A DNA stretch of 33,301 bases from Escherichia coli (GTDB taxonomy: Bacteria; Pseudomonadota; Gammaproteobacteria; Enterobacterales; Enterobacteriaceae): assembly GCF_002854065.1 (NCBI RefSeq), contig NZ_CP024149.1; one strand, given 5' to 3'. Made by a program: the position numbers. Shown here one piece after another: positions 26,215-29,200 of the stretch (its first letter is position 1; every line of letters starts with the position of its first letter).

Positions 26215-29200
26215 TGAATCGCGCTCTGCCGCTTCGTTCGATACAACCATGAGGAAAACCATGCGAAATGAAAAAAATCGCTTAAAATGCGATTCAGAGC
26301 GTTTTAGGGAGGTTCTGTTAGTTCTCCTGCATTGCGCCCGTAGTTCGCTAACGCTCACACGCGCAGTACAGCGCCCCGCCATGCTGCAATGCACCAGGGC
26401 GGGGTAAACTCGCTTGCGCTCGCGCTAACTGCGGCATTCTGCGGCGCAAATCAGCATAATCATGGCCTGCTGGTCAGTTGGGCTTTGCAGGGTGAAGGGA
26501 TGGCCTGTGCACCCTGGTACGTTCGTCAGCGGCTGCGCCGCGCTTCGGGGCGATGTGGCTCCTGTGCTGCCCTGGTATTTTCGTTCGCCCCTTCCATCCG
26601 CTTACGCGGATTAAAAAACGTGATAACAATCACTTATCGAGTAAAAAAACGGGAGAAAACTTGCAAATACGACTTAAAGGTCGTATTATTGTTTCATCGA
26701 AAGGGGAATGGCCCCTCTCACAATAGCCCAGCAGGGCAGGAGATTAAAAAAATGAATATCCAGGAAGCATTAAACGTTTTTGGATTATCCGGCGAATTAA
26801 CTGAAAAAGATATCAAAGCAGCATACAGAAAAGCCGCTTTAAAATATCATCCAGATCGTAACCCGTTAGGGGCTGAACTGATGAAAGCGGTAAATGCAGC
26901 TTTTGATGTATTGATGGCAAATATTGATAAAATAAATCAGTTCCAGAGCACTGATGAACATGCACGATATAATTACGGTGATGACCTGGAAAAAGTATTA
27001 AACGTTCTTTCTGGTTTATCTGGTCTGGTATTTGAAGTGATAGGTAACTGGGTCTGGATTAGTGGAGAAACCATTACACATAAGGAAACTTTAAAAGAAA
27101 TCGGGTGTAAATGGGCGGCAAAGAAAAAACAATGGTTTTATCGTCCAGACGAACATAAAAGTTACTGGAATCGTGAAGAACACACGATAGAAGAAATCCG
27201 CGCAAAATACGGTACAACCGGACAGCGCAGGGCGACAGGGTGGCAACGCGTGGAAACCAGAGCGTAACCAGAACGGGGGCGAGAAGCCCCCGATATTATA
27301 GCCAGCCCGTCTTTTGGGGCATCGAACCCAAAAAGACGGGAACAGCAGCCACGTAGCAAAAAGGGAAACAGATGAACTCTTTTTTTGAACAATATCACCC
27401 TGTCTTTGAAGTTGTCTGCCGTATCCTGGGGAACGGCTGGCGCGTGAACAAACTTGATGATTGTTCGTCTCGTATAAAACTGACGTCACCGCAGTTTAAA
27501 AATTACTCTGTGCATATTCGGATGGAAAAAGACCGCTTTTCTGTGGTGGGGAGTGTGGATAGTCGTTCCTGGCGTAGTCCGCATCATGTTTGCACGTTAT
27601 CCAGAAAACGGAATCCCGTTGATATTGCAGCCGATATCGAGCGAAAAATTCTGGTAAATGCTTCGCAGGAGGTGTTACAGGCGATTGAGTATGAGAAACA
27701 CCAGGTGGAAAAAAAGGACGAAATTCTGATCCTGAAAGGTATGTTATCGCAACTTGTCCAGCTTGAAAGCTGGTATGGGGCATTGACAGGCTTTAAAGCT
27801 GAAAACGGATTGAACGGTAAAGTCACCGAACAGGGCGACAGTTATGATTTACAGATTCGGGGCTTGAGTATAGATCAACTTGTTAAAATTACAGGGTATT
27901 TGAAACAGTTATGAGAAAAAATAAAGGTGATGTGACTTATTTTCTTGAAAAAGAAGGTGACAATTACAGGCTTACAAAAAGGATAAAAGCCAGAACAAAT
28001 GTTAAAATCGGGAACAAAACTACGAAAATTACATTGTATGATGCTGTACTGAATGAGAATGAATTACAACATATTGATTTTACGTGTGCCGGATTAAGGG
28101 AAGACGATGAGACGCCAGTTAAGAATTTAATTAAGGAGTTTATGTTAAATGAAACCCGATAATACACCTGAAAATGTAAAAAAATTACGTTTAAAAGCAG
28201 GATTAACACAAAAGGAATGCAGTCATATTTATGGTGTTGGGCTAAGAACCTGGCAGAAAAAAGAGGAAGTTAATACTCAAAACAGTCAAAGTCTGTCACT
28301 GGTTGAGTTTGAGTTTCTTTTGTTACTTGCAGGAGAACATCCTGAATACGTGCTCTGCAAAAGGGAGTCAAAATAAAATGACCTGTGATGGTTTTATATT
28401 AGTACCTGGAGTTGCGCTCGTAGCTCGCTGACGCTCACACGCGCAGTACAGCGCCCCGCCATGCTGCAATGCACCAGGGCGGGGTAAACTCGCTTGCGCT
28501 CGCGCTAACTGCGGCATTCTGCGGCGCAAATCAGCATAATCATGGCCTGCTGGTCAGTTGGGCTTTGCAGGGTGAAGGGATGGCCTGTGCACCCTGGTAC
28601 GTTCGTCAGCGGCTGCGCCGCGCTTCGGGGCGATGTGGCTCCTGTGCTGCCCTGGTATTTTCGTTCGCCCCTTCCATCCGCTTACGCGGATTAAAAAACG
28701 TGATAACAATCACTTATCGAGTAAAAAAACGGGAGAAAACTTGCAAATACGACTTAAAGGTCGTATTATTGTTTCATCGAAAGGGGAATGGCCCCTCTCA
28801 CAATAGCCCAGCAGGGCAGGAGATTTAAAATGAAATGCTCATCTGTTTTTACTTCAACCACTAATCATGTTTTCACATTCGAACGAGTAACGCTTTGCAC
28901 TATTATCCTTATGCATAAGGATACTGGACAACAGTATGTTGTCATATTTACTGATAACAATAAAATTCGTGACTATAAAGCCGGAATTGTTCCTCAGTTT
29001 GGCGAACTTAAGCAGAGTGATGTTGATTTAGTCCTTTTCTACAGGGACGAATATGAAAAATATTTTGATTCATTAAAAGATGGCGATGAATGCTTGAGTT
29101 TTAAAGATTTTATTGAGTGTCTTTGTTAAGCATTATGAATGCAGGGGCATCCCTGCATTTTCTGGAAATTTCAATATTGATTCTGAAATTGTCTATTAAC

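What the first reader, a model, noticed from the sequence alone, without database searches (positions are those of the whole stretch)
26752..28376. Origin-proximal operon: J-domain protein, two unknown ORFs and an XRE regulator
Seen in sequence: a 171-aa protein with a canonical J domain (HPD) but no DnaJ Gly/Phe or zinc-finger regions is followed after two stable hairpins (27274..27292, 27306..27340) by three translationally coupled ORFs (180 aa, 83 aa, and a 75-aa XRE-type HTH). Established knowledge: J domains recruit Hsp70/DnaK to client proteins. Inference: a plasmid-encoded co-chaperone adaptor that could remodel the pi initiator or another plasmid protein; the coupled trio ending in an HTH regulator resembles compact accessory modules (defence or addiction-like) but no catalytic motif was recognisable by eye.
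Basis: partly seen in the sequence, partly recalled or inferred. Interest (0 to 1): 0.45.

Follow-up and report, generated by a model that had tools for sequence, protein, structure and literature searches.

The report
Early-entry plasmid operon with J-domain protein
The four genes are real, but they lie in the part of this colistin-resistance plasmid that enters a new cell first during mating, so they look like a self-repressing early operon built around a protein that recruits the host chaperone DnaK, not a replication accessory.

Summary
The window is a complete 33.3-kb IncX4 mcr-1 plasmid. All described features are confirmed: a 171-aa J-domain protein, two stable hairpins, and three overlapping ORFs of 180, 83 and 75 aa.

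The context changes the reading. An RP4-type nick motif upstream of taxA lies on the minus strand. The genes from hicBA back to the J gene therefore form the leading region, with the transferred strand as their template.

Each of the two operons there is preceded by the same ~420-nt cassette. It contains a GC-rich structured element carrying the decamer found at the primase start of phage G4/alpha3/St-1 origins. It also has a sigma-70 promoter with a palindrome over its spacer and -10, and a structured 5'UTR.

The palindrome changes together with the recognition helix of the 75-aa MqsA/Aca-like HTH across nine lineages, which suggests an autorepressor.

The J protein and the 180-aa protein (secretion-chaperone/PsiB-like fold, pLDDT 92) are adjacent in every proteobacterial context examined, across unrelated replicons and a prophage. 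This argues against a pi-specific role. Remote J homologues sit beside ssb and AcrIIA9.

Best reading: a zygotically induced establishment module that hijacks DnaK. The biochemical target is unknown.

The parts
26332..26625 (-). GC-rich structured element, copy A; candidate G4-type (DnaG primase) single-strand initiation site on the transferred strand
   Evidence: It is 99% identical to copy B and conserved at 75-93% in IncI2, IncK2/Z, Edwardsiella and other plasmids, 2-5 copies each. It is the strongest ssDNA-folding peak of the plasmid (-65 kcal/mol against a background of -30 +/- 7.7). 99.5% of cells are paired in the conserved multi-branch hairpin, but only 2 pairs covary. It has no Rfam match and no similarity to F Frpo.
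26481..26490 (-). Decamer CTGCAAAGCC inside an invariant block, identical to the primer-start block of phage G4 oric
   Evidence: G4 carries it at 3996-4005, with the annotated origin at 3998 and the primer at 3970-3997. Alpha3 and St-1 carry CTGCTAAGCC at the equivalent site, and the plasmid copies show the same A/T alternation. There are 2 hits in the window against 0.09 expected, and 21 hits in 215 kb of fetched loci against 0.8 expected.
26661..26689 (+). Sigma-70-type promoter A (TTGCAA-17-TATTAT) of the J operon
   Evidence: Found by the consensus scan. The same layout is conserved in 18 cassettes from 9 lineages.
26666..26687 (.). Palindrome AATACGAC-N6-GTCGTATT over the spacer and -10; candidate operator of the 75-aa HTH
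   Evidence: There are only two copies in the window, one per cassette. Dyad symmetry is kept through sequence turnover: 5 of its 8 pairs show compensatory changes, with up to 4 pair types per pair. The half-site class matches the HTH recognition-helix class in 9 lineages.
26703..26742 (+). 5'UTR with two short hairpins (GGGG..CCCC at 26703-26715; GCCC..GGGC at 26726-26737) and the SD AGGAG at 26738-26742
   Evidence: Conserved with covariation in all lineages.
26752..27267 (+). J-domain protein, 171 aa (WP_001025395): J domain at residues 1-65, alpha/beta C-terminal domain at 75-135, disordered basic tail at 157-171
   Evidence: Found by tblastn in 2,595 PLSDB plasmids, 83% of them conjugative.
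27274..27292 (+). Hairpin 1, immediately after the J stop codon
   Evidence: A G+C-rich hairpin, often with a GNRA-type loop, sits at this position in all 11 lineages examined, including the prophage, where a T-run follows it.
27306..27340 (+). Hairpin 2
   Evidence: Present only in the IncX4 and IncI2 lineages.
27372..27914 (+). 180-aa protein (WP_001083906), the conserved partner of the J protein, with a secretion-chaperone/YbjN/PsiB-like fold
27911..28162 (+). 83-aa fast-evolving basic protein (WP_001230707), likely a partner of the HTH
   Evidence: Only 6 word-search hits. Positional homologues share the N-terminal motif RxxKGxxTYYL. It is 42% identical between IncX4 and IncI2, whereas the 180-aa protein is 94% identical between them and the best IncI2-sized plasmids carry a J protein 99.4% identical to the IncX4 one. 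In locus L016, an N-terminal region 43% identical to L015's positional homologue (itself only 24% identical to this protein) is fused to the HTH.
28149..28376 (+). 75-aa HTH protein (WP_000801440), the candidate autorepressor
   Evidence: Sub-threshold Pfam and NCBIfam MqsA/Xre matches. PHROG 'transcriptional repressor'. PDB MqsA HTH domain E 6.6e-5 and Aca3 E 0.013.
28412..28830 (.). Copy B of the whole cassette: GC-rich element 28412-28705, decamer 28561-28570 (minus strand), promoter 28741-28769, palindrome 28746-28767, 5'UTR. It drives the next operon (28830-29129 and 29220-29570).
29875..30467 (+). hicA/hicB toxin-antitoxin pair, the last leading-region genes before oriT, with their own consensus promoter at 29818-29846
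30724..30817 (-). oriT (long inverted repeat arm next to taxA), with the nick-type motif GTCTATCCTG|CATTG on the minus strand at 30724-30738
   Evidence: IncX plasmids are described as carrying two oriTs within long inverted repeats (PMC3402527). The YATCCTG|Y nick consensus of RP4-type relaxases is from my own knowledge.

Best explanation
The operon is the distal part of the leading region of the IncX4 plasmid, the DNA that enters a recipient first from the oriT next to taxA. The transferred (minus) strand is the template of all eight genes there.

Expression comes from a repeated cassette that precedes both operons.

(1) A GC-rich structured element on the transferred strand is most likely a G4-type priming site for host primase. 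A primer started at its CTG would be extended towards the promoter and the genes. This would make that stretch double-stranded first (inferred).

(2) A sigma-70 promoter has its spacer and -10 covered by a palindrome.

(3) The last gene product, a 75-aa MqsA/Aca-like HTH protein, probably acting with the 83-aa protein, binds this palindrome in both cassettes. After an initial burst in the repressor-free recipient, it shuts the promoters off. This is zygotic induction with autorepression (inferred from operator/recognition-helix co-variation).

The payload is a two-protein unit. The J-domain protein has an invariant HPD motif that should stimulate the ATPase of host DnaK. Its private C-terminal domain selects the client. 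The obligatorily co-inherited 180-aa protein has the fold of secretion chaperones and of the RecA inhibitor PsiB. It is either that client or the adaptor that holds a host target.

The likely purpose is establishment of incoming DNA. It could redirect or titrate DnaK, as phage RB43 Rki does, or remodel or neutralise a host factor or defence protein. The target itself is not known.
For: Shown:
- The window is identical to IncX4 mcr-1 plasmids.
- The nick-type motif is on the minus strand beside taxA, and all genes from 26752 to 30467 are on the plus strand. This is the same layout as the F leading region.
- The cassette is duplicated here, and 2-3 copies precede successive operons in eight further lineages.
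- The dyad symmetry of the palindrome is preserved through compensatory change. 10 of the 16 predicted pairs in the cassette covary.
- Five recognition-helix classes pair one-to-one with five half-site classes in nine lineages.
- Between IncX4 and IncI2 the 180-aa protein is 94% identical, and the closest IncI2-sized plasmids carry a 99.4% identical J protein. The HTH (68%), the 83-aa protein (42%) and the operator differ together.
- The HTH is homologous to the DNA-binding domain of MqsA and resembles Aca3.
- HPD is invariant.
- The J and 180-aa genes are adjacent in every proteobacterial context examined, across four replicon types and a prophage. Their counts in PLSDB are nearly 1:1 by genus, for example Escherichia 1027 against 1024 and Klebsiella 530 against 530.
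- Remote J homologues lie in a co-oriented small-gene run upstream of T4CP/MobF in Acinetobacter pA85-3. In an E. faecalis plasmid one lies next to ssb, a nuclease, a TA pair and AcrIIA9.
- The primase-start decamer is shared with G4, alpha3 and St-1.
- The two GC-rich elements are the strongest ssDNA-fold peaks in the plasmid.
- Rki of phage RB43 is a precedent for a J-domain protein of a mobile element acting through DnaK (PMC3486835).
Against: - There are no expression data, and no paper in the searchable library links J-domain proteins to leading regions.
- The helix/operator concordance could partly reflect shared ancestry, since the lineages fall into a few clades.
- A palindrome would also be conserved if it acted only as a DNA or RNA hairpin.
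- The nick site is assigned by motif, not by experiment. IncX plasmids also have a second, inverted oriT at 23934-24027, from which this region would enter later and on the other strand.
- The G4-type assignment rests on one decamer plus general hairpin content. The hairpin directly 5' of the CTG in the phages is not conserved in the plasmid element. IncX3, Erwinia, Providencia and Yersinia relatives have the promoter cassette without the GC-rich element.
- The C-terminal domain of the J protein has no informative structural neighbour.
- Remote phage J homologues lack a 180-aa partner.
Confidence: 0.55

Rival explanations
1. Replication helper. The J protein brings DnaK to the plasmid initiator (pi/Rep3) to convert inactive dimers into active monomers and so help replication start at the adjacent iteron origin.
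For: In IncX-type plasmids the operon lies next to the Rep3/pi gene and iterons, in divergent orientation. DnaK/DnaJ/GrpE activation of pi, RepA and RepE is established biochemistry (my own knowledge). A freshly transferred plasmid needs active initiator quickly.
Against: The same module is found with IncI2 RepA, an IncFII-type RepA and a prophage with its own primase/helicase replication genes. J homologues also occur in Acinetobacter and Enterococcus plasmids with other replicons. The module travels with the promoter cassettes and other leading-region genes, not with rep. The constant partner is the 180-aa protein, not an initiator.
Confidence: 0.12
2. Rki-like heat-shock manipulation by the J protein alone. 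It occupies DnaK, stabilises sigma-32 and raises host chaperones and proteases. The 180-aa protein would have a separate role, for example a PsiB-like inhibitor of a host ssDNA-response protein.
Against: No similarity between the C-terminal domains of this protein and Rki was tested or seen. The strict adjacency and the 1:1 co-occurrence of the two genes in Enterobacterales argue for joint action. PsiB similarity is fold-level only.
Confidence: 0.15
3. Donor-side function. The 180-aa protein is a secretion-chaperone-type adaptor, and the J protein (with its basic, disordered C-terminal tail) or another protein is a substrate delivered through the conjugative type IV secretion system into the recipient.
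For: The best fold matches are type III secretion chaperones. The J protein ends in a disordered basic tail (residues 157-171, pLDDT < 50). F-like T4SSs translocate leading-region proteins such as PsiB and SSB (PMC8406263, abstract listed).
Against: The pair also occurs in a prophage without a conjugation system. No translocation signal was tested. The fold is shared by many non-secretion proteins (YbjN, DUF2170, PsiB, CapZ).
Confidence: 0.08
4. Addiction or defence module. The 83-aa protein is a toxin or effector and the 75-aa MqsA-like protein its antitoxin, or the trio is an anti-phage system.
For: The gene order (small protein followed by an overlapping MqsA-like HTH) resembles mqsRA, higBA and hicAB. 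PGAP names one homologue 'MqsA family antitoxin'. TA pairs are frequent in this region.
Against: The 75-aa protein has only the HTH domain and lacks the zinc-binding toxin-binding domain of MqsA. The 83-aa protein matches no toxin family. There are no PADLOC hits. The HTH's candidate operator controls two operons, not just its own pair. In one lineage a domain related to a positional homologue of the 83-aa protein is fused to the HTH, which is unusual for a toxin-antitoxin pair.
Confidence: 0.07

Closest known systems
Rki (ORF057w) of T4-like phage RB43, a mobile-element J-domain protein that acts through host DnaK
   Same: It has an N-terminal J domain with HPD and a private C-terminal domain of unknown fold, with no G/F or zinc-finger region. 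It is encoded by an invading element and is the first gene of a small cluster of unknown genes (PMC3486835).
   Different: Rki is 237 aa against 171 aa here. No sequence relation between the C-terminal domains was shown. The protein here has an obligatory 180-aa partner in Proteobacteria and sits in plasmid leading regions. A sigma-32 effect is untested.
acr-aca operons (anti-CRISPR genes with an Aca autorepressor) and ArdK/KorA-type control of plasmid establishment genes
   Same: A strong promoter carries an inverted repeat over its core elements. The payload genes come first and a small HTH repressor gene comes last. The expected behaviour is a burst on entry followed by shut-off. Aca3 is among the sequence neighbours of the 75-aa protein.
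   Different: The payload is a J-domain protein and its partner, with no known anti-defence activity. The operator is repeated in front of a second operon. Repression has not been demonstrated.
Leading-region ssDNA promoters Frpo/ssi1-3 (class 1) and classes 2-3 of IncF/IncI1 plasmids
   Same: A repeated, highly structured non-coding element sits immediately upstream of each leading-region operon, with the transferred strand as template (PMC11541004, PMC12672017). The elements here are the strongest ssDNA-fold peaks in the plasmid.
   Different: There is no sequence similarity to F Frpo. The predicted -35 and -10 are not reconstituted by long-range pairing. The -10 lies in a short local palindrome, and the structured part lies upstream of the -35. 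The folding energy is above the -75 kcal/mol threshold used in PMC12672017.
G4-type (DnaG primase-dependent) complementary-strand origins of phages G4, alpha3 and St-1, and the G4-type ssi signals reported in plasmids such as R100 and R6K (the plasmid reports are from my own knowledge)
   Same: The decamer CTGC(A/T)AAGCC, which contains the CTG primer start, is present with the same A/T alternation, on the strand that is single-stranded in vivo, among G+C-rich hairpins.
   Different: The hairpin directly 5' of the CTG in the phages is not conserved here. The largest conserved hairpin lies 3' of the CTG. Overall sequence similarity is otherwise absent. Priming activity is untested.
PsiB, type III secretion class I chaperones and the YbjN/DUF2170 fold group
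   Different: There is no sequence or profile similarity, an extra long helix and a second beta4-alpha domain, and no evidence for any ligand.

Membership tests
J-domain proteins (Hsp70 co-chaperones) | J-domain sequence signature above the curated threshold | tested here: met
   Pfam PF00226 scores 44.4 bits against a cut-off of 27.8.
J-domain proteins (Hsp70 co-chaperones) | HPD tripeptide between helices II and III, and the four-helix J fold | tested here: met
J-domain proteins, class A/B (DnaJ/CbpA type) | Gly/Phe-rich linker, zinc-finger domain and DnaJ C-terminal client-binding domains | tested here: not met
   Only the J domain matches. All DnaJ equivalog scores are far below their cut-offs (for example 40.6 against 377 bits). 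The C-terminal domain is a different small alpha/beta domain. The protein is therefore class C.
J-domain proteins (Hsp70 co-chaperones) | Stimulation of DnaK ATPase and physical binding to DnaK | not testable with these tools
   Needs biochemistry or genetics, for example complementation with a J-domain swap as was done for Rki.
XRE/MqsA-type HTH DNA-binding proteins (75-aa protein) | HTH domain match | tested here: inconclusive
   Below the Pfam and NCBIfam cut-offs (25.3 against 30; 23.4 against 25.8; 25.1 against 61.8). However, phmmer gives E 6.6e-5 to the solved MqsA HTH domain 3fmy over residues 6-66.
MqsA antitoxins | N-terminal zinc-binding (CxxC...CxxC) toxin-binding domain and a cognate MqsR toxin | tested here: not met
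   The 75-aa protein aligns only to MqsA residues ~70-126. The 83-aa neighbour matches no toxin family.
Autorepressed early operon (acr-aca-like logic) | Inverted repeat overlapping the core promoter, with the HTH gene at the 3' end of the operon | tested here: met
   Palindrome 26666-26687 lies within promoter 26661-26689, and the HTH is the last gene. The layout is conserved with covariation in 18 cassettes.
Autorepressed early operon (acr-aca-like logic) | Binding of the HTH to the repeat and repression of transcription | not testable with these tools
   There is only indirect support: recognition-helix classes and half-site classes coincide in 9 lineages.
Plasmid leading region | Location on the side of nic that enters first, with genes templated by the transferred strand | tested here: met
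   The motif GTCTATCCTG|CATTG is on the minus strand at 30724-30738, with the hairpin 5' of it. All 8 genes from 26752 to 30467 are on the plus strand. The nick position is inferred from the RP4-type consensus (my own knowledge), not mapped.
Frpo/ssi class 1 ssDNA promoters | Sequence similarity to the known Frpo/ssi elements | tested here: not met
   No blastn hit to the F leading region at word size 7 and E 1e-3. The alignment shows no relation.
Frpo/ssi class 1 ssDNA promoters | -35 and -10 reconstituted in a long stem of the transferred strand | tested here: not met
   In the folds of the minus strand the -10 pairs locally within the short palindrome, and the long stems lie upstream of the -35.
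G4-type primase-dependent ssi | Conserved block containing the CTG primer start, on the strand that is single-stranded | tested here: met
   CTGC(A/T)AAGCC is shared with G4 (annotated origin), alpha3 and St-1. It is invariant in 13 element copies and lies on the minus strand.
G4-type primase-dependent ssi | Phage-like arrangement of three hairpins 5' of the start site, and SSB/DnaG-dependent priming | tested here: inconclusive
   Hairpins are present, but the one adjacent to the CTG is not conserved. Priming cannot be tested here.
PsiB / secretion-chaperone-like fold (180-aa protein) | Fold similarity | tested here: met
PsiB / secretion-chaperone-like fold (180-aa protein) | Sequence or profile homology to a named family | tested here: not met
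   No Pfam hit for 47 diverse members. hhalign probability against F PsiB is 0.2%.
Known anti-phage defence systems | Match to a defence-system protein model | tested here: not met
   No PADLOC match for any of the four proteins.

The most novel reading that the evidence does not exclude
Conjugative plasmids (and some phages) of several phyla carry a dedicated DnaK-hijacking establishment factor. It is a class-C J-domain protein that, together in Proteobacteria with a secretion-chaperone/PsiB-like partner, remodels or neutralises a host protein in the first minutes after entry.

In the IncX4/IncI2 group its expression would be timed by a previously undescribed arrangement. A primase-type priming site on the transferred strand is placed directly upstream of a repressible promoter, so that complementary-strand synthesis itself switches the operon on. 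This would be an alternative to Frpo-type single-strand promoters.
Probability: 0.3. Interest if true: 0.8.

Novelty: new variant of a known kind. Interest (0 to 1): 0.6.

Why it matters
The module sits on the main epidemic carriers of last-line resistance. These are the IncX4 and IncI2 mcr-1 plasmids and the 46-kb IncX3 blaNDM plasmid. About 2,600 of 72,556 PLSDB plasmids encode the J protein.

Leading-region genes are currently being mined for anti-defence and establishment functions. Even so, no paper in the searchable library connects J-domain proteins with leading regions. In the supplementary tables of the key survey held as text, the only family annotated as DnaJ-like has five members.

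If the J/180-aa pair is needed for establishment, it is a target for blocking plasmid spread. It would also be a new way for mobile DNA to use Hsp70.

The cassette also offers a testable alternative route to early gene expression: priming-coupled activation followed by autorepression.

Tried and rejected
- Frpo homology of the repeat: rejected. There is no blastn similarity to the F leading region.
- A protein-coding reading of the GC-rich repeat (the 292-aa in-frame ORF 26389-27267 and PGAP's 78-aa call in IncI2): rejected. The copies differ by 1- and 4-nt indels.
- Rfam: no family matches the repeat or the intergenic hairpins.
- Strand asymmetry of folding, to decide which strand folds: inconclusive. 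Consensus energies are -35.0 against -31.5 kcal/mol, and single-sequence energies are equal.
- Covariation proof for the GC-rich hairpins: weak. Paired columns are almost invariant, and only 2 pairs covary.
- Hairpins 27274-27340 as an intrinsic terminator: not supported on the + strand in this plasmid, because there is no T-run. The prophage homologue of hairpin 1 does have one.
- 180-aa protein against BFVD: one unnamed viral protein at E 8.5e-6 and nothing annotated. AFDB50 was not available.
- A 180-aa partner in the remote phages with J homologues: none found by hhalign.
- Profile link between the 83-aa family and the fused protein of L016: hhalign was negative. Only the pairwise match to L015's positional homologue is significant.
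- The first whole-plasmid folding scan timed out and was repeated on a subset.
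Full report
What the window is. Megablast shows that the 33,301-base window is a complete IncX4 mcr-1 plasmid. It is 100% identical over the queried 2.6 kb to many 33.3-kb plasmids, for example pLHM10-1-MCR-1 (conjugative, MOBP relaxase, MPF_T). The pir gene is at 24471-25343 (minus strand), and six 22-bp iterons are at 25555-25730. taxA and taxC start at 30828. A 94-nt inverted repeat has arms at 23934-24027 and 30724-30817. IncX plasmids are described as carrying two oriTs inside such long inverted repeats, one next to taxC and one next to the replication gene (PMC3402527).

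Check of the observation.
- The 171-aa CDS 26752-27267 matches Pfam DnaJ (E 1.8e-11). Its HPD motif at residues 33-35 is invariant in 40 homologues.
- All DnaJ, CbpA and DjlA equivalog models score far below their cut-offs. The AF2 model (pLDDT 82.8) shows a J domain, then a helix and a beta-beta-alpha-beta-beta domain (residues 75-130), and a disordered basic tail. It is therefore a class-C J-domain protein.
- The two hairpins exist (z -4.3 against shuffles), and neither has a T-tract on the plus strand.
- The three downstream ORFs overlap by 4 and 14 nt.
- The 75-aa protein is below the Pfam and NCBIfam thresholds for MqsA/Xre HTH models. It does align to the solved C-terminal DNA-binding domain of MqsA (3fmy, E 6.6e-5) and, more weakly, to the anti-CRISPR-associated repressor Aca3.

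Location: a leading region. Each oriT arm ends in GTCTATCCTGCATTG, preceded by a hairpin. This fits the YATCCTG|Y nick consensus of RP4-type (MOBP) relaxases (my own knowledge). Next to taxA the motif is on the minus strand. The minus strand would therefore be nicked and would enter the recipient 5' end first, running from about 30728 towards lower coordinates. All eight genes between 30467 and 26752 are on the plus strand, so the transferred strand is their template. These genes are hicB, hicA, two small ORFs, the HTH, the 83-aa ORF, the 180-aa ORF and the J gene. This orientation is typical of leading regions (PMC11541004), and the F plasmid shows the same layout. The operon is thus both origin-proximal and the distal part of the leading region. 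The nick position is inferred, not mapped. The second, inverted oriT would lead with pir instead.

Positions 26332-26750 and 28412-28830 are 99% identical, and each ends at the start codon of an operon. The 3' 100 nt form a cassette with the following parts:
- a -35 TTGCAA, a 17-nt spacer and a -10 TATTAT;
- a perfect palindrome AATACGAC-N6-GTCGTATT that covers the spacer and half of the -10;
- two short 5'UTR hairpins;
- the Shine-Dalgarno sequence AGGAG.

The same cassette, with 2-3 copies per plasmid, each in front of a successive operon, occurs in eight other lineages. These are IncI2, an IncK2/Z mobilizable plasmid, IncX3, and Erwinia, Edwardsiella, Providencia, Citrobacter and Yersinia plasmids. 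In an alignment of 18 cassettes, 10 of the 16 predicted pairs show compensatory changes. Positions in the palindrome take up to four different Watson-Crick pair types with no broken pairs in the core.

The HTH as repressor of the cassettes. The residues of the 75-aa protein that align with the recognition helix of MqsA fall into five classes, and each class goes with one half-site:

| Recognition helix | Half-site | Lineages |
|---|---|---|
| VGLRTWQKKE | ATACGAC | IncX4 |
| VSLNYWQRKE | CTGAC | Erwinia |
| MSLSNWQRKE | TACCGCA-N4-TGCGGTA | Edwardsiella, Providencia, Citrobacter |
| FTLSAWQAKE | ACCATCA | Yersinia, IncX3 |

Shared ancestry could explain part of this concordance. The IncX4/IncI2 comparison is more telling. 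The 180-aa protein is 94% identical between the two groups, and the closest IncI2-sized plasmids carry a J protein 99.4% identical to the IncX4 one. In contrast, the HTH (68%), the 83-aa protein (42%) and the operator in all cassettes differ together. I therefore read the 75-aa protein as an autorepressor of both operons. That would give a burst of expression in a repressor-free recipient followed by shut-off. This is the logic of acr-aca operons and of ArdK/KorA-controlled establishment genes. Binding itself is not shown.

The 83-aa protein evolves fast. The word-based search found only six relatives, but positional homologues share an N-terminal RxxKGxxTYYL motif. In one lineage (L016) the HTH protein carries an N-terminal region that is 43% identical to the positional homologue of another lineage (L015). 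A profile comparison of the whole 83-aa family with that fused protein was negative. This gives a limited hint that the 83-aa protein works with the HTH.

The GC-rich part of the repeat. The 5' ~290 nt (65% G+C) are non-coding, because copies differ by 1- and 4-nt indels. The element has no Rfam match and no similarity to F Frpo.
- In a 300-nt sliding fold of the minus strand with DNA parameters, the two copies are the strongest peaks of the plasmid. They score -65 and -66 kcal/mol against a background of -30.1 +/- 7.7 with a minimum of -53.8.
- A multi-branch hairpin is conserved in 13 copies from five lineages, with 99.5% of cells paired. The paired columns are nearly invariant, so covariation support is thin.
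- The predicted -35 and -10 are not brought into a long duplex, so this does not look like an Frpo-type single-strand promoter.
- An invariant block on the minus strand, CCCTGC(A/T)AAGCC, contains the decamer found at the primer start of the primase-dependent complementary-strand origin of phage G4. In G4 the decamer is at 3996-4005, the annotated origin at 3998 and the primer at 3970-3997. Alpha3 and St-1 carry it at the equivalent site with the same A/T alternative.
- The decamer occurs twice in the window against 0.09 expected, and 21 times in 215 kb of fetched loci against 0.8 expected. Most of these occurrences lie in element copies, on the strand opposite the leading-region genes.

I take this as a good lead that the element is a G4-type single-strand initiation site. 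A primer begun at T26489 would be extended towards higher coordinates. That would convert the promoter cassette and the operon to duplex DNA first. The caveats are real. The phage hairpin next to the CTG is not conserved. Several lineages, IncX3 among them, have the cassette without this element. Priming is untested.

The strongest functional clue is gene linkage.
- A J gene lies directly upstream of the 180-aa gene in every proteobacterial context examined. Two of these have one or two small ORFs in between. The contexts include a chromosomal prophage and short metagenomic contigs at 24-34% identity.
- tblastn counts in PLSDB are almost 1:1 by genus: Escherichia 1027 and 1024, Klebsiella 530 and 530, Citrobacter 78 and 78.
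- A G+C-rich hairpin directly after the J stop codon, often with a GNRA-type loop, is conserved in all 11 lineages folded. It probably sets the ratio or stability of the J message relative to the distal genes. Hairpin 2 is specific to IncX4 and IncI2.

What the pair does. The J domain implies recruitment of DnaK. The C-terminal domain, which has no informative structural neighbour, should select the client. The constant partner is the obvious candidate, either as the client or as an adaptor that holds a host protein. The module is independent of the replicon type (IncX Rep3/pi, IncI2 RepA, IncFII-type RepA, prophage), which argues against a pi-specific role.

Remote homologues of the whole J protein point to an establishment role.
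- In Acinetobacter pA85-3 one lies in a co-oriented run of small genes upstream of the coupling protein and MobF relaxase.
- In an Enterococcus faecalis plasmid one lies beside ssb, a nuclease, a TA pair and an AcrIIA9-family anti-CRISPR. This is typical content of an anti-defence island.
- Full-length homologues also occur in phages.

The nearest characterised analogue is Rki of phage RB43. It binds DnaK, stabilises sigma-32 and needs both its J domain and its unknown C-terminal domain (PMC3486835). My best account is an early, self-limiting establishment module that redirects DnaK. I cannot say whether it titrates DnaK as Rki does, neutralises a defence or ssDNA-response protein, or assists plasmid proteins.

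State of knowledge. The genes are annotated only as 'J domain-containing protein' and 'hypothetical protein'. Full-text searches found no paper combining 'leading region' with DnaJ or J-domain. IncX4 papers that mention DnaJ appear, from their titles and abstracts, to be resistance-plasmid surveys; I did not open them. In the supplementary tables of the Nature 2024 survey held as text, the only DnaJ-annotated leading-region family has five members.

Verdict. The operon belongs to a known kind, a repressor-controlled leading-region establishment operon. Its payload is uncharacterised, widespread and clinically relevant, and its upstream element may be a new way of coupling complementary-strand priming to early expression.

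Noticed in passing
window 23934-24027 and 30724-30817: Two oriT copies lie in a 94-nt, 99% complementary long inverted repeat that brackets a 6.7-kb segment (pir, iterons and the whole leading region). From the second copy the plus strand would be transferred, with ORF 24054-24458 and pir (both minus-strand genes) entering first and templated by that strand.
   Followed up: partly
window 26332-26625 and 28412-28705 (minus strand): The GC-rich structured element carries the G4/alpha3/St-1 primer-start decamer. Extra copies of the decamer occur outside the cassettes in related plasmids (for example L002 2236-2245 near IncI2 repA, and L005 1549, 13100 and 13404). These may be further priming sites.
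   Followed up: partly
window 17477-17565 (minus strand): The only Rfam match in the plasmid above the gathering threshold is AgrB (RF02891), an antisense RNA family, at 58.7 bits.
   Followed up: no
window 17141-19322, especially 18480-18626: A family of ~25-nt direct and inverted repeats (core TGTGACATAC) is clustered just upstream of the MipZ/ParA-like gene at 18635-19282. It looks like a partition site or operator array.
   Followed up: no
window 29818-29846: A perfect consensus sigma-70 promoter (TTGACA-17-TATAAT) lies directly upstream of hicA. It follows a bidirectional terminator-like hairpin at 29790-29810, so hicAB is transcribed independently of the cassettes.
   Followed up: no
window 28830-29129: The first protein of the second cassette-driven operon (99 aa) matches phage family phrog_2061 (E 2.2e-10, residues 61-98), which has no known function. 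Another leading-region protein is therefore shared with phages.
   Followed up: no
L020 (E. faecalis plasmid NZ_CP028838.1) 5016-10420: A remote homologue of the J protein (27% identity over the full length) sits in one gene run with DUF3850, ssb, a thermonuclease, RelB/YafQ, DpnD/PcfM and an AcrIIA9-family protein. This suggests the J family is a recurrent anti-defence-island component in Firmicutes too.
   Followed up: partly
L016 4666-5310: In one IncI2-like lineage the HTH is part of a 214-aa protein. Its N-terminus is 43% identical to the small protein that occupies the 83-aa position in another lineage (L015), and it has an extra C-terminal extension.
   Followed up: partly
L021 (IncX3 blaNDM plasmid pHNGD64-NDM) 1353-3284: The epidemic 46,161-bp IncX3 NDM plasmid carries the same four-gene module plus one extra small ORF between the J and 180-aa genes. 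It has two promoter cassettes (palindrome ACCATCA-N2-TGATGGT) but no GC-rich element.
   Followed up: partly
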